Of a DNA stretch of 64,000 nt, positions 36,001 through 42,000 are shown one piece after another. The DNA lies in NCBI GenBank assembly GCA_027021705.1, contig JALUTT010000170.1:17616-81615 (forward strand). Reading direction: 5' to 3'. The position numbers were made by a program. The DNA is from Anaerolineae bacterium. GTDB taxonomy: Bacteria; Chloroflexota; Anaerolineae; S140-20. The stretch's first letter is position 1. Each line of letters begins with the position of its first letter.

Positions 36001-39000
36001 CCTGGAAGCCGGTGCTGAAGACCAGGGCGGCCTCCTTGTTTACGTACTCGGCCAGGCGGCGCTCCAGCTCCCGATGCATCTCCAGCGTACCGTTGAGGAA
36101 GCGAGAGCCGGTGCAACTGGTCCCAAATTGCTCCACCGCTCGAATGGCCGCCTGACGGACCTTGGGGTGGGTGGTCAACCCCAGGTAGTTGTTGGAACCG
36201 ATCATCACCAGGCGGTGATCTCCATCGTAGACCACCGTTCCCTCGCTCTCGGAGAAGGGGATGAAGTAGGGGTAGAGGCCGGCCGCTTGGGCCATTCGGG
36301 CCTCGGTGAACTGATGGCATTTGTCGAACAGGTCCATCGGGAGCTCCCTCCTTACACTGGTCGCCGGTGGCAGATAACCCGACCGGTGCGCCCTGGGGAC
36401 GCCCTGCTATCCGACCAGGGATTGTACTGAGGTTTTGACGTTTGTCAAGGTGGGGAGCAACGCGGTAGCGGAGTGGTGAGGCGGCGGGGCGATGAGGCAA
36501 CGGGGCAGTGAACCGGTGGGGGAGGAGGAAATGAGGCAACGAGGGATGAGGAAAGAGGTAAGGCGGCTTTCCCTAGCTGCCCGAAACTTGGGGGGGATCG
36601 CCGGAGAGAACAACGAGGCGACGAGGGATGAGGCGATTAGGGGAGAGCGATGGAGCAACAAGCGATGAAGGTGTCGGCGGGGCGTGGGGAACCGGGGGAT
36701 TCCCGGGAGCCCGGTGCGGAGGCCGCCATTGTCCTGGAAGGGCTGCGCAAAGTCTACGGGCGCAAGGTGGCCGTCAGCCGCCTCACGCTCCGGGTGGAGC
36801 GGGGGGAGGTCTTCGGCTTTCTGGGGCCGAATGGAGCTGGGAAGACGACGGCGATCAAGATGATGCTGGGGCTGGTGCACCCCACGGCCGGTCGGGGCTG
36901 GCTGCTGGGCCGGCCCCTGGGCGACTGGCGGGTCCGGGAGCGGATCGGCTTCCTGCCTGAGGACTTCCGCTTTCACCCGTGGTTACGGGCTGCCGAGTTC
37001 CTCGACGTCCACGGTCAGCTCTACGGCATGCCGGCCCAGGAGCGGCGACGGCGTATCCCGGAGCTGCTGGAACTGGTCGGGCTGGCCGACGAAGCCCGCA
37101 CCCGTCTGGCCCACTTCTCCAAGGGTATGTTGCAGCGGATCGGCCTGGCCCAGGCCTTGCTCAACCGCCCCGATCTGGTCTTCCTCGACGAGCCGACCTC
37201 AGGGTTAGACCCCCTGGGGCGGCTGTTGGTGCGCGACGTGATCCGCCATCTGCGTGAAGAGGGGACCACCGTCTTCCTCAACTCCCACCTCCTGAGCGAG
37301 GTCGAGGTGACCTGCGATCGAGTGGGCTTCATCAAGGCGGGAGAACTGGTCCGCGTCGCCGACCTGCGCCGTCTGGTGGAGGGCGAGACCGAAGTGGAGC
37401 TGCGGGTTGGCGAGGGGGAGGCGACACCCGCCCTCCTGGAGGGGCTGCGCCGCCTGGGGGCCTGGAAGGTCCAGGCTCACGACCGCCGGGTGACGATGAC
37501 GGTGGACCGGGAGGAGAAGTTGCCGGAGATCGCCCGCTGGGTCCTCAGCCAGGGCGTCCACCTCTACGCTCTGACACCTCGCCGCCTCTCACTGGAAGAC
37601 CTCTTCGTCCGCATCGTCCAGGATCAACAGGAGGGAGCGCGATGAAGCTCTGGGGCATTGCCCGGTTCACCTTTCGGGAGGCCCGTCGTCGCCGGCTCCT
37701 CTGGGTGGGGCTGGGGCTGGGCATCCTCTTCTTGGGCCTCTTCGCCCTGGGGTTCTCGCTCATCTATCGGGAGATGCAGGCGGATATTGGACGCAGCCCG
37801 ACCGCCCAGGCGATGGTCGAGTTCGCCGTGGGCCAGTTCGAGATGGCTGCTCTCTTCGTCATCAACTTCCTCATCGTCCTGACGGCCATCCTGACAACTA
37901 TCACCGCGCTGCCGAGCGAGATCAACTCCCACACCATCTACGCCGTGGTCACCAAGCCGGTGCGCCGTTGGGAGGTGTTGCTGGGCAAGTGGCTGGGCCA
38001 CGCGATGATGCTGACCGCCTACGTGCTGTTGCTGGCCGGCGGCGTGATGCTCATCGTCTACGTCATCGCGGGCTACGTGCCCCGCCATCCCATCCGTGGC
38101 CTGGCCCTCCTGGTCCTGGAGGGATTGGTGCTGACCAGCCTGACCTTCCTCGGCGGGACACGTCTCTCCAGCTTGGTCAACGGCGTCGTCGTCTTCATGC
38201 TCTACGGTCTCGCCTTCATCGGTGGGTGGGTGGAGCAGTTTGGTAGTCTGCTGGGCAACCAGACGGCGGTGCAGCTGGGCCACCTGCCGGCCATCGTGAT
38301 GCCCAGCGAAGCTCTCTGGCGGCTGGCCTCTCACATGATGAGCCCGCCGCCTCCGTTGGGGGTGGGCTTCACGCCGGGCGGGTCCCTCTTCGCCTTTGGA
38401 CGACCACCGGCGGCCTCTACAGCCCGCTACGGGTTGATCTACGTTGTCGTCGTACTTTTCTTGGCCATCCTCTCCTTTCGCCGACGGGACCTGTGAGACC
38501 AGAGCCCCGCGCCCTGGTATTTCCCCCCACGCTCCCCTTCCCATTTCCCCCAACGCACTCTCTCCGAGATCCCCACAACTTAGGATATGTTGCCATAGGG
38601 CTCAGTGCTCAAGCAAGACCCAGATTCCCGGGGTCTCCGCGCGGCGATCCTCCCTTTGGGATGCCCCCGACGAGGCGAGCACGTTGCCTCTCAGAGAGCC
38701 CTGTGTTCCGCCAGCCATAGCGTGGCCTGTGGAGAGGTGGTGAGCGGTCGGGCGGTTGGCGAATGGGGTGGAAACCCACCAATCTTCCCTTGTCTCCCCT
38801 GTAGATACGATGGATATGGGGGTAGACCCCCACTGGATAATGGGTAATTCTACCCACAAAAAGTGACATCCATCACAATGCAGTGGTGACATCCCTCACT
38901 ATCCCTTGGTCCGGCTATCCTCTATACTGGGCCTTGAGGCGCCACCCCAGGCCCGTTACCTGTAGCAGGAGGAGCGTGTTATGAGACGTCAGGGGCTGTT

Positions 39001-42000
39001 CATCCTTGGGGCGTTGTTGTTGATGGCGCTCCTGGTCGTAGCCTGTGCCGGCCCTCAGGGACCCGAGGGACCGCCCGGTCCGGCAGGACCGCCGGGGCCG
39101 GAAGGGCCTCAGGGTCCTCCAGGCCCCCAAGGCCCTCCAGGGCCTCAAGGACCGCCAGGGCCACAGGGACCACCAGGAGAGGCCGCCGCTGCCGAATACG
39201 TCGGGAGCGACGTTTGCGCTTCGTGCCATGAGGAGATTTATGATGTCTTTATAAAGTCGGGCCACGCCTGGAAGCTGAATCCGGTCGTGGACGGCAAGCC
39301 CCCGGAGTACCCCTTCACCGAGGTCCCAGAGCCGCCGGAAGGCTACACCTGGGATGACATCGCTTACGTCATCGGGGGCTACAACTGGAAAGCCCGGTTT
39401 ATTGACAAAAACGGTTACATCATCACCGGCCCCGACGAGAATGCCACGACCCAGTACAACTTCGCCAATCCCGAGGTGGGCAAGGAGGCCGGCTGGGTGG
39501 CCTACCATCCCGGCCAGGAGAAGCCCTACAATTGCGGGCCCTGCCACACCACCGGTTACAAGCCGGAGGGCCACCAGGACGGCCTGGAAGGGATCGTCGG
39601 CACCTGGGCGGAGCCGGGCATCAAGTGCGAGCGGTGCCATGGCCCAGGCAGCCTGCACGTTGCCAACCCCTATACCGTGCGCATGGTCGTGGACCGCGAT
39701 TCCGAGCAGTGTGGTGAATGCCATCTGCGGGGCTCGCCCGAAGCGGTCAACGCCAAAGGTGGCTTCATCCAGCACCACGAGCAATACGAGGAGCTCTTCC
39801 AGAGCAAGCATATCACCCTGCGGTGCGTGATCTGCCACGACCCCCACGCCGGAGTGGTGCAACTGCGCAAAGCGGGCGAGCAGACCACACGCACCCAGTG
39901 TGAGAACTGTCACTTCCAGGAGGCCAAGTACCAGAACTCCGAGGTACACAAGGCCGTGGGGGTGACCTGTATTGACTGCCATATGCCGCGCATCGTCAAG
40001 AGTGCCTGGGGAGACGCCGAGAAGTTCACGGGGGACATCCGCACCCATATGATGGCCATTGACCCGGATCAGATCGAGCAGTTCACCGAAGATGGCAAGA
40101 CGGCGCTGTCGCAGATCGGGCTGAACTTCGCCTGCCGCCATTGCCACGTCGAAGGGGGGAAGGCGACCCCGAAGACCGACGATGAACTGCGCGAGAGGGC
40201 AACAGGCTATCACGCCCGGCCTTAGACCGACCGATCCGGATCGTTGCCAAGAGCACGTCTGCGGGCCGGGGACTGCCTCCCGGCCCGCATTCCCATCTGG
40301 GCTCGCCGTCCAGCAGCGCAGGATAGTGGGTGGATAACAATGAAGCGGTTTGCCGTGCTCCCAGGTCTGGTGGGGCTGGTTCTGGTGAGCCTCGCCCTCG
40401 TAGCCGCCCCCACAGCGGCTCAGCCGGCCCGGCCCACCCCGTCGGTCCCGAATGTGGGTGATGAGACCTGCCTGGCCTGTCACGACACACCGGGGTTGCA
40501 GATCACGCTCCCCTCGGGTGAGCCCCTCTACCTGACCGTGGACCGGGTGATCTACAAGACCTCGACCCACGGGCGGCTGGGCTATGCCTGCGTCCAGTGC
40601 CACACGGATATTGGCGAGTTCCCTCATCCGCCCCTACAGGTGACCAGCCGGCGGGAATTCACGTTGAAGCTGTACCGGTCCTGTGCTCGGTGCCACGAGG
40701 ACAAGTACGAGGCCACCCTGGACAGCGTTCACCAGGCTGCCCTGGCTGCAGGCCACCCGGAGGCTGCCGTCTGCACCGACTGTCACGGGGCCCACAACAT
40801 CGGGCCACCGGACAAACCGCGCAGCCACATCTCCCGAACCTGCCGCCGTTGCCATTCCCAGATCTATGACCTGTATGAGAAGAGCGTCCACGGCGCGGCG
40901 CTGATTGACGAAGGGAACCCTGATGTCCCCTCTTGCACCGACTGTCACGGGGTGCACAGCGTCGAAGGGCCCTCCACCAGCCCGTTTCGCCTCTTCTCAC
41001 CACAGATCTGTGCCCGCTGCCACGCCGATCCGAAGCTGATGGGGCGCTATGGCATCAGTACCGACGTCTTCGACACCTACGTCGCCGACTTCCACGGCAC
41101 CACCGTCATCCTCTTCGAGGCCATTGCCCCGGATCAGGAGACCAACAAGCCGGTCTGCATTGACTGTCATGGCGTGCACGACATCCAGACGACGGACGAT
41201 CCGGAGAGCCGGGTCATTAAGGAAAACCTGCTTGCCACCTGCCGGAAGTGCCATCCTGATGCCACGGCCAACTTCCCTACCGCCTGGCTCAGCCACTACC
41301 GGCCCAGTCCCGAGCACGCACCGCTGGTCTACTTCGTCAACCTGTTCTACGAGATCCTGATCCCCACGGTGATCGGGGCAATGGTGATCTTCAACGCTAC
41401 CGACATCTACCGACGGGTTGTCTGCCGCCTTCGGGAGCGCCGCCATGGGTGAGGTTCGTAAGTACCTGCGTTTCCCCCTCTCCTACCGCCTCGAGCACGG
41501 GCTGCTTATGCTCAGCTTCACGGTCCTGGCCATCACCGGCCTGGTCCAGAAGTACGCCGGCACCGGCCTTGCCGAAGGGGTCGTGGCCTTGATGGGGGGC
41601 ATCGAGCGCGTGCGCATCACGCATCGGGTCGCCGCCATCGTCCTGATGATCGAGACGGTCTACCACGTGGGGGCTGTGGGCTATCGCCTCTTCGTACACC
41701 GCGCCCGCCCCACAATCCTCCTGACGTTGGACGATGGGCGCATCGCGCTCCAAATGCTGCTGTACAACCTAGGCCTGCGGAAGGAACGCCCCCTTCAAGG
41801 TCGCTACACAGTAGAAGAGAAGATCGAGTACTGGGCCGTGGTCTGGGGAACGCTGATTATGGCGGTCACAGGGTTTATGATGTGGAACCCCATCGCCACC
41901 ACACGCCTCTTGCCTGGGGAGTTCGTCCCGGCGGCCAAGGCGGCCCACGGCAACGAAGCCCTTCTGGCCGTGCTGGCCATCCTCGTCTGGCACGTCTACC

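What a model noticed while it worked through the whole genome (the two positions that open the first line are those of the whole stretch)
38981..40225. Lipid-anchored OcwA-like octahaem cytochrome carried on a collagen triple-helix stalk
g03910 (414 aa) has a lipoprotein signal peptide (LVVAC22), then 15 uninterrupted Pro-rich Gly-X-Y collagen triplets (res. 24-68), then a 345-residue domain with eight CxxCH haem sites related to OcwA, the cell-surface terminal reductase of the Gram-positive Thermincola. It heads an operon with a nonahaem cytochrome, a cytochrome b and an ImcH-like quinol oxidase (C170 56596-61948). The same build is kept in a very large Chloroflexota family, so the stalk is functional: three chains would wind into a rod of roughly 13 nm (15 triplets x 0.86 nm, textbook rise) holding a trimer of 24 haems away from the membrane, i.e. 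across the cell wall, for extracellular electron transfer.
Evidence so far: Sequence, Pfam Collagen 24-68 (E 7e-9), CxxCH at 79,185,216,244,282,307,330,385, operon list. phmmer vs PDB: best hit 6i5b_A over res. 61-257, E 3e-19; 6I5B is OcwA (PMC6703420, passage read, call 177); res. 23-70 hit animal collagens. find_homologous_proteins: 1718 proteins at E<=1e-40; of the best 120 (51-98% identity) 112 have >=5 consecutive GXY triplets in the first 140 residues (median 13, range 9-27), 112 a lipobox-like Cys in the first 45, median 8 CxxCH. Alignment of 40 (A2, call 166): C22, the triplet glycines, all 16 haem Cys and 7 of 8 haem His invariant (H220 >=90%). Trimer test of res. 22-130 x3: ipSAE 0.59/0.60/0.59 against 0.00 for the best of 3 controls; runs share >=78% of [...]
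(Added by a program. Inside this text positions count along the whole contig: contig position 17,616 is position 1 of the stretch shown here. "Call 12" and the like, gene names such as g00115 and contig names such as C1 are that model's own, and its searches are not shown. The text may have been shortened before it was handed on; [...] marks where a part breaks off. The agent that wrote the report below was given it as the finding of a first reader that could run no searches.)

Follow-up and report, generated by a model that had tools for sequence, protein, structure and literature searches.

The report
Collagen-stalked, lipid-anchored eight-haem cytochrome
A heat-loving vent bacterium encodes an eight-haem electron-transfer protein that is tied to its membrane by a lipid and held away from it on a short collagen-type rod, a design kept in many relatives but not found in the papers searched.

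Summary
ORF 38981-40225 (+) encodes 414 aa: a lipoprotein signal peptide (Cys22), 15 uninterrupted Gly-Pro-X triplets (res 24-68) and a 346-aa head with eight CxxCH sites.

The stalk looks like a real triple-helix element:
- 128 of 132 stalked relatives have one unbroken run.
- It occurs only behind a lipid-anchor Cys.
- It is kept through roughly 40-50% head identity, although its length drifts.

The head belongs to the OcwA/OmhA/MccA clade (Z 18.6, 16.1, 17.8). Its haem set is MccA-like: OcwA's haem 5 is missing. It keeps a haem-2 pocket (K137, Y183, R250, H265/H266) but lacks MccA's copper ligands. "OcwA-like" is therefore only partly right.

The genome has no Omp85 but has Lgt and LspA, so the protein sits on the outside of a single membrane. 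Of 52 loci, 42 link the gene to a split CbcL-like nonahaem/cytochrome b pair.

Trimer formation, reach across the wall and extracellular electron transfer remain inferences. The complex tool never accepted my job.

This scan noted the same architecture before in at least 18 other genomes. Four literature searches found no description of it.

The parts
38863..38899 (+). Two near-identical 14-bp palindromes (GTGA-N6-TCAC) at 38863-38876 and 38886-38899, upstream of the operon. Likely a regulator site.
   Evidence: Sequence read. The two exact copies are the only ones in the window. Earlier scan note e1-1352908.
38923..38928 (+). -10-like hexamer TATACT. No -35 was seen by the consensus scan.
   Evidence: Read by eye. 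The scan lists no sigma-70 pair here.
38981..39046 (+). Lipoprotein signal peptide, res 1-22, ending in lipobox V-V-A-C22.
   Evidence: hydrophobic segment 5-23. 113 of 120 close relatives have a lipobox-type Cys. Lgt x4 and LspA x1 in the genome.
39050..39184 (+). Collagen-type stalk: 15 uninterrupted Gly-Pro-X triplets, res 24-68.
   Evidence: Pfam PF01391 E 4.1e-8. Imperfect 18-bp DNA repeat (80% matches) with mixed synonymous codons. 128 of 132 relatives have one unbroken run.
39185..40225 (+). Octahaem head, res 69-414: eight CxxCH sites, a beta-sheet insert and a putative open haem 2 pocket (K137, Y183, R250, H265/H266).
   Evidence: AF2 pLDDT 92.2. VIA Z 18.6 OcwA, 17.8 MccA, 16.1 OmhA. 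Profile against PDB. Conservation.
40340..41452 (+). Gene B: nonahaem c-type cytochrome with a signal peptide and a C-terminal membrane helix. The ORF is open from 40244; the likely start is ATG 40340.
   Evidence: 9 CxxCH, Pfam multihaem families, hydrophobic segments 4-22 and 327-357. Found on the same strand as A in 43 of 52 loci, 42 downstream and 1 upstream.
41418..42599 (+). Gene C: cytochrome b (FdnI/HydC type), then a Pro/Thr-rich linker, then a monohaem PSCyt1 domain.
   Evidence: PF01292 E 1.5e-12, PF07635 E 5.5e-10; TIGR01583 E 5e-11, below cut-off. TM-like 248-266 and haem Cys320. B plus C present in 42 of 52 loci.
42636..44333 (+). Gene D: membrane-anchored NrfH/NapC-type multihaem quinol dehydrogenase with extra haems and a C-terminal PSCyt1 domain.
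   Evidence: PF03264 E 1.8e-9; TIGR03153 E 1.6e-16, below cut-off. PDB NrfH 2j7a_C E 7.8e-7 and FoxE 5mab E 7.4e-7. Present in 19 of 52 loci.
44363..44400 (+). Terminator-like hairpin (12-bp stem, 10 G-C pairs) with a T run, 30 bases after gene D.
   Evidence: A separate tRNA cluster follows.

Best explanation
Gene A encodes an exported lipoprotein. After signal-peptide cleavage, Cys22 is lipidated and sits in the outer leaflet of the only membrane of this Omp85-less Chloroflexota bacterium.

One residue later, 45 residues of Gly-Pro-X most likely wind with two more chains into a collagen triple helix. At the textbook rise of 0.286 nm per residue (recalled) that is about 13 nm. The result would be a lollipop with three lipid anchors at the base and three octahaem heads (24 haems) at the tip.

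The head is a pruned member of the OcwA/OmhA/MccA clade. It has an MccA-type eight-haem core and no long C-terminal oligomerisation helices. Seven haems probably have bis-His ligation. Haem 2 is probably open, with a conserved Lys/Arg/Tyr/His-His pocket.

Electrons would come from the menaquinol pool through the co-transcribed modules: a split CbcL-like nonahaem plus cytochrome b pair (B, C) and an NrfH-type dehydrogenase (D). C and D each carry a monohaem domain; C's sits on a Pro/Thr-rich tether of about 50 residues that could reach a head held away from the membrane. The head would pass the electrons to acceptors in or beyond the wall zone, which could be minerals, chelated metals, flavins or small oxyanions at haem 2.

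Shown: the sequence anatomy, conservation, fold, gene linkage, and absence of outer-membrane markers. Inferred: triple helix and trimer, height, electron path, direction and acceptor.
For: Anatomy.

Triple-helix constraint:
- 128 of 132 stalked relatives have a single unbroken run, and only one shows an in-phase Gly-to-Ala break, while X and Y vary (X is Pro in 69%; Y is Ala, Pro, Gln or Glu).
- The stalk makes up a median 82% of the spacer between anchor and head.
- The Pro/Thr linker seen in gene C and the short Pro/Thr stretch before D's PSCyt1 domain are not GXY, so the organism uses another linker type for single-chain tethers.

Tie to the anchor:
- The head-only query gave 132 representatives with complete N-termini. 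Of these, 24 carry collagen, and all 24 sit behind a lipobox-type Cys (21 by regex, 3 by eye).
- None of the 66 non-lipoproteins carries collagen. Fisher p = 2e-5 on the regex counts.
- The run starts 0-4 residues after the Cys in 110 of 117.

Age: the stalked heads form one 95%-supported group of 72 rows (67 stalked), with 5 state changes against about 41 in shuffles.

Thermal tuning: stalk Pro content rises with the head's IVYWREL fraction (Spearman 0.35, p 5e-5, n=128) and not with a GC proxy (0.05). This stalk ranks 7th of 128. The genome's proteome gives a crude estimate of about 66 C, and the DNA occurs in vent metagenomes.

Head:
- AF2 pLDDT 92.2. OcwA Z 18.6 (279 aligned, 3.0 A), MccA Z 17.8 (319 aligned, 4.0 A), OmhA Z 16.1.
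- Profile E-values: 4.6e-32 (OcwA), 4.5e-23 (MccA), 3.9e-23 (OmhA).
- K137, Y183 and R250 align with MccA K208, Y301 and R366. H265/H266 align with OcwA H281/H282. They are kept in 117, 107, 110, 106 and 99 of 125 sequences.

Envelope: no Omp85 (the control rings in 7 diderm genomes), Lgt x4, LspA x1, Ccm-type genes in the window.

Linkage: B sits on the same strand in 43 of 52 loci, and B plus C in 42 of 52. The operon is bounded by a promoter region and a terminator.

Precedent: OcwA and OmhA are cell-surface reductases of monoderm thermophiles (passages, PMC6703420; PMC9250108). Ardenticatena maritima, a monoderm Chloroflexi isolate, shows surface haem staining and electrode respiration (passages, PMC5808234).
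Against: - No direct evidence for a triple helix. The AF2 monomer leaves res 24-68 without secondary structure (pLDDT 65-79).
- No prolyl 4-hydroxylase family was found (genome 94.9% complete). 15 triplets may be marginal near 66 C.
- No coiled-coil neck lies between stalk and head, so what nucleates and registers the helix is unknown.
- Stalk length ranges from 9 to 17 triplets among relatives of 77-81% overall identity, and from 6 to 41 in the family. This argues against a precise ruler.
- A few close relatives lack the stalk (P0037, P0071) or have a degenerate Pro-rich spacer (P0073).
- Collagen does not conduct. A head 13 nm from the membrane needs a donor that reaches it, and the tethered-domain or tilting-rod ideas are untested.
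- Wall thickness is unknown, no SLH proteins were found, and a folded 40-kDa head may not pass peptidoglycan.
- The conserved haem 2 pocket fits an enzyme for soluble substrates as well as it fits EET.
- Head homologues occur in only 40 of 301 genomes of the class, including MAGs labelled Litorilinea aerophila.
Confidence: 0.5

Rival explanations
1. The Gly-X-Y run is a single-chain, polyproline-II-like flexible tether. The protein is a monomeric lipoprotein and the repeat only provides slack between anchor and head.
For: The AF2 monomer gives no structure for res 24-68. Length is labile. One close relative has a non-GXY Pro-rich spacer instead (P0073). Lipoprotein relatives without collagen have a median 25-aa spacer. 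No hydroxylase was found. The estimated growth temperature is high.
Against: A flexible tether does not need Gly at every third place, yet 128 of 132 stalks are unbroken while X and Y vary. Gene C's linker and the short Pro/Thr stretch in D are not GXY. Stalk Pro content tracks a thermophily proxy and not a GC proxy. The Pfam Collagen model is passed over its cut-off.
Confidence: 0.15
2. The head is mainly an enzyme. It would be a stalked (trimeric or not) reductase or oxidase of a soluble nitrogen or sulfur compound such as nitrite, hydroxylamine, sulfite or tetrathionate. It would work at haem 2 in the wall zone and be fed by the quinol modules, with no electron transfer to solids.
For: The fold is tied between OcwA and the sulfite reductase MccA, and the eight-haem set is MccA-like. 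K137, Y183 and R250 align with MccA catalytic residues K208, Y301 and R366, and H265/H266 align with the non-bonding distal His pair of OcwA's open haem. Only seven well-kept candidate distal His exist for eight haems. OcwA itself reduces nitrite and hydroxylamine (passages). The habitat is a sulfur-rich vent.
Against: MccA's copper ligands are absent: C399 falls in an insertion and C495 aligns with Ser341. The protein has no Cys outside the lipobox and the haem motifs. There is no CX15CH site, and Y123 and K393 have no counterpart. There is no CxxCK. OcwA has the same kind of open haem and is still assigned to EET, with very slow nitrite turnover. No maturation or accessory genes typical of MccA or NrfA systems appear in the operon.
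Confidence: 0.2
3. The system runs inward. The stalked head collects electrons from extracellular Fe(II), reduced minerals or a partner cell, and feeds them through B/C/D to the quinone pool or to a terminal oxidase.
For: The C-terminal monohaem domain of D resembles the Fe(II) oxidoreductase FoxE (5mab, E 7.4e-7). A. maritima shows cathodic as well as anodic current (abstract and passages). Multihaem chains are reversible (established knowledge). Vent fluids carry Fe(II).
Against: NrfH- and CbcL-type modules are known as quinol oxidases (passages). No cupredoxin, Cyc2-type or oxidase gene lies in the operon. The FoxE match covers only a class I cytochrome c fold.
Confidence: 0.1

Closest known systems
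OcwA, outer cell-wall nonahaem cytochrome of Thermincola potens (PDB 6I5B)
   Same: Best sequence and fold match: phmmer E 3e-19, profile E 4.6e-32, VIA Z 18.6 with 279 residues aligned at 3.0 A and 29% identity. Haems 1-4 correspond. The beta-sheet insert is shared. The His pair aligned with OcwA H281/H282 at the open haem 2 is kept. The host is a monoderm thermophile.
   Different: Eight haems instead of nine: OcwA's fifth motif, its second open haem, has no counterpart. No long C-terminal three-helix bundle appears in the model. OcwA runs as monomer and dimer and has no lipid anchor or collagen mentioned (passages; 'lipoprotein' occurs 0 times there).
MccA, octahaem copper sulfite reductase of Wolinella succinogenes (PDB 4RKM)
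   Same: Longest structural alignment: 319 residues, Z 17.8, and a profile alignment over nearly the whole head. Same set of eight haem positions. K208, Y301 and R366 are matched by K137, Y183 and R250. MccA is a homotrimer (recalled from Hermann et al. 2015, not seen here).
   Different: No Cu(I) ligands (C399 and C495 absent), no CX15CH haem 8, and Y123 and K393 unmatched. About 300 residues shorter. MccA is a soluble periplasmic enzyme without anchor or stalk.
OmhA, S-layer undecahaem cytochrome of Carboxydothermus ferrireducens (PDB 6QVM)
   Same: Same clade: profile E 3.9e-23, Z 16.1. A cell-surface cytochrome of a monoderm thermophile.
   Different: Eleven haems and a different surface attachment (the PDB title names the S-layer). 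No SLH domain was found in this genome. Here the attachment is a lipid plus collagen.
Bacterial collagen-like 'lollipop' surface proteins (Streptococcus Scl1/Scl2, Legionella Lcl, Bacillus BclA)
   Same: A hydroxyproline-free Gly-X-Y rod carries a globular head away from the cell. There are weak NCBIfam hits to SclA, SclB and Lcl over res 23-69.
   Different: Those proteins are adhesins or spore-coat fibres, are anchored by LPXTG or the basal layer, and have much longer rods (recalled). Here the rod has 15 triplets, starts one residue after a lipidated Cys, and carries a redox enzyme.
Geobacter sulfurreducens CbcL and ImcH inner-membrane quinol oxidases
   Same: B (nine CxxCH) plus C (FdnI/HydC-type cytochrome b) match the domain content of the bc-type CbcL. 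D has the NapC/NirT-type N-terminus that ImcH shares (passages).
   Different: B and C are two genes rather than one fused protein. C and D each carry an extra PSCyt1 monohaem domain. No direct comparison with CbcL or ImcH sequences was made.

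Membership tests
OcwA-type nonahaem cell-surface cytochrome | Nine CxxCH haem sites | tested here: not met
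   Eight CxxCH. 113 of 120 close relatives also have eight.
OcwA-type nonahaem cell-surface cytochrome | Fold and sequence of the OcwA/OmhA/MccA clade | tested here: met
   Z 18.6 with 279 aligned at 3.0 A. Foldseek E 3.6e-12. Profile E 4.6e-32.
OcwA-type nonahaem cell-surface cytochrome | Open haem 2 with non-bonding distal His pair (H281/H282) | tested here: inconclusive
   H265/H266 align with that pair (numbering from PMC9250108) and are kept in 106 and 99 of 125 sequences. The coordination state cannot be read from sequence.
OcwA-type nonahaem cell-surface cytochrome | Second open haem (haem 5) with H380/H381 | tested here: not met
   OcwA's fifth motif has no partner. Haems 5-8 here align with OcwA 6-9, marked by the CHMP and CH-x-x-H landmarks.
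OcwA-type nonahaem cell-surface cytochrome | C-terminal three-helix bundle | tested here: not met
   The AF2 model has only short helices after res 340 (381-386 and 400-407).
MccA octahaem sulfite reductase | Eight haems in the OcwA-minus-haem-5 arrangement | tested here: met
   Profile alignment over MccA 118-614 matches all motifs. Z 17.8 with 319 aligned.
MccA octahaem sulfite reductase | Cu(I) ligands C399 and C495 | tested here: not met
   C399 lies in an insertion and C495 aligns with Ser341. There is no Cys outside the lipobox and haem motifs.
MccA octahaem sulfite reductase | CX15CH site for haem 8 | tested here: not met
   Haem 8 is an ordinary CRHCH at 385.
MccA octahaem sulfite reductase | Substrate pocket Y123, K208, Y285, Y301, R366, K393 | tested here: inconclusive
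   K208, Y301 and R366 are matched (K137, Y183, R250). Y123 and K393 have no counterpart. Y285 is uncertain: Y175 lies four columns away.
MccA octahaem sulfite reductase | Homotrimer | not testable with these tools
   My head-only trimer job was never accepted by complex prediction. The MccA trimer itself is recalled, not seen in a call.
Collagen triple-helix repeat (Pfam PF01391) | Uninterrupted Gly-X-Y run passing the family cut-off | tested here: met
   15 triplets. 33.3 bits against a cut-off of 27.2.
Collagen triple-helix repeat (Pfam PF01391) | Three chains form a triple helix | not testable with these tools
   No complex job ran. The indirect support is Gly invariance and Pro tuning.
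Bacterial lipoprotein (signal peptidase II substrate) | Lipobox with invariant Cys after a hydrophobic core, and Lgt and LspA in the genome | tested here: met
   V-V-A-C22. 113 of 120 relatives. Lgt x4 and LspA x1.
CbcL-like bc-type quinol oxidase (genes B and C) | Nonahaem c domain together with an FdnI/HydC-type dihaem cytochrome b | tested here: inconclusive
   B has 9 CxxCH and C matches PF01292 at E 1.5e-12. They are split into two genes, and no CbcL sequence was compared.
ImcH/NapC/NirT-type quinol dehydrogenase (gene D) | N-terminal membrane helix followed by a NapC/NirT tetrahaem module | tested here: met
   TM-like 24-42. PF03264 at 38 bits over its 24.1 cut-off. NrfH 2j7a_C E 7.8e-7. 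Likeness to ImcH itself was not tested.

The most novel reading that the evidence does not exclude
The collagen rod replaces the lost C-terminal oligomerisation helices of this cytochrome clade. It assembles three MccA-type heads into a 24-haem unit on three lipid anchors. Because the anchors let the stiff rod tilt freely, the unit would work as a swinging electron carrier. It would load near the membrane from the nonahaem/cytochrome b complex and the tethered monohaem domains, then unload up to about 13-18 nm away, across a wall that has no continuous haem wire. This would be a mechanical solution to trans-wall electron transfer in single-membrane bacteria, with the stalk's proline content tuned to growth temperature.
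Probability: 0.15. Interest if true: 0.9.

Novelty: new variant of a known kind. Interest (0 to 1): 0.68.

Why it matters
How single-membrane bacteria move respiratory electrons across a non-conducting wall is understood for only a few Firmicutes cytochromes (OcwA, OmhA). Here a large, mostly uncultured Chloroflexota family common in sludge, sediment and vent metagenomes shows a different design: a lipid anchor, a collagen rod and an OcwA/MccA-type head.

If the rod is a real triple helix, several things follow:
- It would be an example of collagen used to position a redox enzyme in bacteria.
- It would give a sequence-readable measure of how far from the membrane the haems sit.
- It would provide a natural set of hydroxyproline-free, heat-adapted short collagens.

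The hypothesis is cheap to test: one recombinant protein, a CD melt and a mass measurement. The open haem 2 pocket also makes the physiological acceptor an open, assayable question.

Tried and rejected
1. Trimer test.

2. Expression. The look-up of sequencing runs listed no RNA holder. This is no evidence on expression.

3. Literature. Searches for 'collagen-like' + 'multiheme cytochrome' (0 papers), 'OcwA' + 'Chloroflexi' (0), 'collagen' + 'cytochrome' + 'triple helix' + 'extracellular electron transfer' (1, unrelated) and 'collagen-like' + 'c-type cytochrome' (2, unrelated by title and abstract) found no description. 'collagen' occurs 0 times in PMC5808234, PMC9250108 and PMC11492766. Subscription journals are not covered.

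4. MccA trimer. I tried to confirm from PMC7558416, PMC11492766 and PMC12949373 that MccA is a trimer. None says so, and the point remains recalled.

5. Extra gene between A and B. The 600-900-base gap between A and B in many relatives is not another gene. In L003 the B homologue is simply longer, at 579 aa.

6. Recent slippage. The DNA repeat is imperfect (80% matches) with mixed synonymous codons, so the stalk is not a recent slippage artefact.

7. Opposite-strand ORF. The 570-aa ORF 38915-40627 on the opposite strand is Arg/Gly/Pro-rich and overlaps gene A, which has strong family support; I judged it an off-frame product of a 63-65% GC region.

8. Haem ligands. The seven-His count is from conservation only.

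Full report
**1. The observation**

The window holds an ATG-started ORF at 38981-40225 (+) of 414 aa, with AGGAGGAG six bases upstream. A script confirms three features:
- a positively charged N-terminus, a hydrophobic core and V-V-A-C22
- 15 uninterrupted Gly-X-Y triplets at res 24-68, with Pro in X in 14 of 15 and in Y in 6 of 15
- eight CxxCH motifs at 79, 185, 216, 244, 282, 307, 330 and 385

No other Cys and no CxxCK are present.

In the whole 5.19-Mb genome (94.9% complete) I scanned 30,405 six-frame ORFs of at least 80 aa. They hold 43 GXY runs of at least 7 triplets. Only this run is Pro-rich and followed by haem motifs; the rest are Gly-rich or lie in off-frame ORFs, judged by eye. 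The DNA is an imperfect 18-bp repeat (80% matches) with all four Gly codons and all four Pro codons in use, so it is old coding sequence and not fresh slippage.

**2. Is the stalk a triple helix or only a spacer?**

No tool here can show a triple helix, so I looked for the constraints one would impose.

(a) Gly invariance. Among 132 stalk-bearing relatives, 128 have one single unbroken run. Only one (P0074) has an in-phase break, a Gly-to-Ala triplet. The other three have a second domain between two runs. Meanwhile X is Pro in only 69%, and Y is spread over Ala, Pro, Gln and Glu.

(b) Tie to the anchor. To avoid bias I searched 1.84 billion cluster representatives with the head alone (res 69-414). 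This gave 2497 hits at E<=1e-3 and 307 at E<=1e-30. Of the 150 best, 132 have a complete N-terminus.
- 24 of these carry at least 5 triplets before the first haem, all behind a lipobox-type Cys (21 by regex; P0146, P0158 and P0167 by eye).
- 42 are lipoproteins without collagen.
- 66 are not lipoproteins, and none of them has collagen.
- Fisher p = 2e-5 on the regex counts.
- The run begins 0-4 residues after the Cys in 110 of 117 and fills a median 82% of the spacer.

(c) Other linkers in the same operon. Gene C has a Pro/Thr-rich linker and gene D a short Pro/Thr stretch before its PSCyt1 domain. Neither is GXY.

(d) Thermal tuning. Stalk Pro content correlates with the IVYWREL fraction of the head, a thermophily proxy (Spearman 0.35, p 5e-5, n=128). 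It does not correlate with a GC proxy (0.05). The partial correlation is 0.34. This stalk is 7th of 128 in Pro content. The rows are kin, so the p-value overstates the evidence.

(e) Age. On a FastTree of 125 heads, the stalked ones fall in one 95%-supported group of 72 rows, of which 67 are stalked. That gives 5 state changes against about 41 in shuffles, across terminal branch lengths of 0.5-1 change per column.

Evidence against a fixed ruler:
- The nearest relatives have 17, 12, 10 and 9 triplets, and the family spans 6-41.
- Two close relatives have no stalk, and one has a degenerate Pro-rich spacer.
- The AF2 monomer leaves the segment unstructured, as expected for one chain.
- No prolyl hydroxylase family was found.
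- A crude proteome estimate gives about 66 C: F(IVYWREL) is 0.428 over 1,678 long ORFs, using a recalled formula. The DNA occurs in vent metagenomes of three studies besides the possible source.

From recalled work, short hydroxyproline-free (Gly-Pro-Pro)n helices melt near or below 40 C unless the chains are tied together. Any stability here would therefore have to come from the lipid anchors and the heads. My head-only trimer job was never accepted (section 7).

**3. The head**

An AF2 model from 125 sequences is confident (mean pLDDT 92.2, pTM 0.80).
- Foldseek finds OcwA (E 3.6e-12), MccA (8.6e-12) and OmhA (8.6e-11), and nothing else below 1e-3.
- VIA-align gives OcwA Z 18.6 (279 aligned, 3.0 A, 29% identity), MccA Z 17.8 (319 aligned, 4.0 A) and OmhA Z 16.1. 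Octahaem nitrite reductases score only 6-7. OcwA and MccA are tied.
- A profile of the family matches OcwA (4.6e-32), OmhA (3.9e-23), MccA (4.5e-23, almost full length) and OTR (5e-10).

This places the head in 'clade 3' of Soares et al. 2022 (passages read).

In the printed alignments, haems 1-4 pair with OcwA 1-4. Haems 5-8 pair with OcwA 6-9, with the CHMP motif and the CH-x-x-H distal His as landmarks. OcwA's fifth motif, its second open haem, is missing, as in MccA ('loss of heme 5', passages). The model lacks long C-terminal helices, which that paper calls oligomerisation-forming.

Numbering offsets can be read from the alignment: SEQRES minus 12 for MccA, plus 29 for OcwA. With these:
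- MccA K208, Y301 and R366 align with K137, Y183 and R250.
- OcwA H281/H282, the non-bonding pair at open haem 2, align with H265/H266.
- These five residues are kept in 117, 107, 110, 106 and 99 of 125 sequences, in stalked and unstalked members alike.
- MccA's copper ligands are absent: C399 lies in an insertion and C495 aligns with Ser341. There is no CX15CH site.

Seven other well-kept His residues (95, 226, 277, 289, 323, 356, 411) could serve seven bis-His haems. I therefore infer one open haem 2 in a cationic pocket. This is inference from alignment, not from coordinates.

**4. Envelope and orientation**

- Omp85 is not found, while the control rings in all seven diderm genomes that have it.
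- Lgt (4 matches) and LspA (1 match) are present.
- No SLH domain was found.
- Two Cytochrom_C_asm genes lie in this window at about 4026-4502 and 11810-12427 on the minus strand.

c-type haem is attached outside the membrane (established knowledge), so the head faces outward from a single membrane. This matches what is reported for the Chloroflexi isolate Ardenticatena maritima: monoderm, no BamA, surface haem staining, and both anodic and cathodic current (passages).

**5. Context**

Two exact 14-bp GTGA-N6-TCAC palindromes (38863-38876 and 38886-38899) and a TATACT at 38923-38928 precede the gene. An earlier scan note treats them as an activator site.

Downstream genes:
- B has nine CxxCH, a signal peptide and a C-terminal hydrophobic helix.
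- C is an FdnI/HydC-type cytochrome b. About 50 residues, including PLTPTPLPTPLPTPTPLP, lead to a monohaem PSCyt1 domain.
- D has an N-terminal helix, an NrfH-like module (2j7a_C, E 7.8e-7), further haems, and a PSCyt1 domain that resembles FoxE (5mab, E 7.4e-7).

These assignments rest. A 12-bp-stem terminator follows at 44363, and then a separate tRNA cluster.

Among 70 loci from species genomes, nearly all labelled Anaerolineae, Promineifilaceae, Ardenticatenaceae or Caldilineaceae, 52 have at least 3 kb downstream of A. Of these, 43 carry B on the same strand, 42 carry B plus C, and 19 carry D. B plus C has the domain content of the bc-type CbcL, and D has the NapC/NirT-type N-terminus that ImcH shares (passages). 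No sequence of either was compared.

Head homologues at E<=1e-40 occur in 40 of 301 sampled genomes of the class, mostly in one copy.

**6. Mechanism**

Most likely, menaquinol is oxidised by B/C and/or D, and electrons reach a trimeric, lipid-anchored lollipop whose heads sit up to about 13 nm out. They leave from the head to acceptors in or beyond the wall.

The gap between membrane donors and a raised head could be bridged by C's tethered monohaem domain or by tilting of the rod on its lipid anchors. Both are speculation.

The conserved haem 2 pocket keeps an enzymatic role open (rival 2). The FoxE-like domains and the reversibility of multihaem chains keep inward flow open (rival 3).

Natural fusions of two to four heads in one chain (16-32 CxxCH) show that clustering heads is a recurrent theme in the family.

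**7. What I could not do, and novelty**

Complex prediction never accepted my head-only trimer job: the queue was full or the tool gave no usable answer. No RNA run was listed.

Four literature searches and word checks in three relevant papers found no description of collagen segments on multihaem cytochromes.

The scan itself has noted the architecture before. 21 notes in at least 18 genomes hold the search words, and look-alikes of this protein were noted in other genomes. Those are unchecked AI notes and not independent evidence.

I rate this a new variant of known kinds: an OcwA/MccA-clade cytochrome combined with a bacterial collagen-like stalk.

Noticed in passing
window 38863-38928: Two exact GTGA-N6-TCAC palindromes lie 23 bp apart, followed by TATACT, with no -35 found by the scan. 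The second box is centred about 30 bp upstream of the -10. This looks like a CRP/FNR-type activator site for the cytochrome operon. These are the only exact copies in the window.
   Followed up: partly
window 44551-44989: A near-consensus promoter-like pair (TTGACA-17-TACAAT, 11 of 12) is followed by four tRNA genes (Phe-GAA, Gly-GCC, Cys-GCA, Leu-TAA), directly after the operon's terminator.
   Followed up: partly
window 46699-47595: A 298-aa ORF combines a protoglobin domain (PF11563, E 1e-15) with a C-terminal ThiS-like domain (PF02597, E 7e-7). This is an unusual pairing next to a family 2 glycosyltransferase.
   Followed up: no
window about 4026-4502 and 11810-12427 (minus strand): Two cytochrome c assembly genes (PF01578, E 1.6e-32 and 1.1e-37; ORFs of 246 and 679 aa, CcmC/CcmF-like sizes) lie in the same window, about 27-35 kb upstream of the operon.
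   Followed up: no
window 42636-44333 (gene D) and G000:C18:11663-13399: The first haem site after D's membrane helix is CX3CH followed by x-M (CGTACHTM, res 54). A second odd site, CX4CH (CSNSACH), lies at res 434. A paralogue on contig C18 has the same CX3CH site.
   Followed up: no
G000:C18:9597-23062: A second cytochrome island lies in the same genome. It holds a decahaem protein, a second NrfH-like protein, three paralogous 6-7-haem proteins with the same mature N-terminus (NGPHGGYTATTDACAGCH), and a 1284-aa protein with seven CxxCH.
   Followed up: no
proteins P0121, P0240, P0003, P0006, P0038 and others: Relatives of the head occur as natural tandem fusions of two, three or four heads in one chain (16, 24 and 32 CxxCH). 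Most are lipoproteins without collagen, for example on a contig labelled Zixibacteria.
   Followed up: partly
proteins P0161, P0181, P0193, P0207, P0225: In one branch of the family, the collagen run is followed by Cys-flanked Asp/Asn/Gly-rich repeats (such as CWDLNGNG..D..DLNGDG) that look like calcium-binding loops, placed before the haem head.
   Followed up: no
window 38915-40627 (minus strand): A 570-aa ORF on the opposite strand overlaps the whole cytochrome gene. It is Arg/Gly/Pro-rich and overlaps a gene with strong family support, so I took it for an off-frame artefact of the 63-65% GC content.
   Followed up: partly
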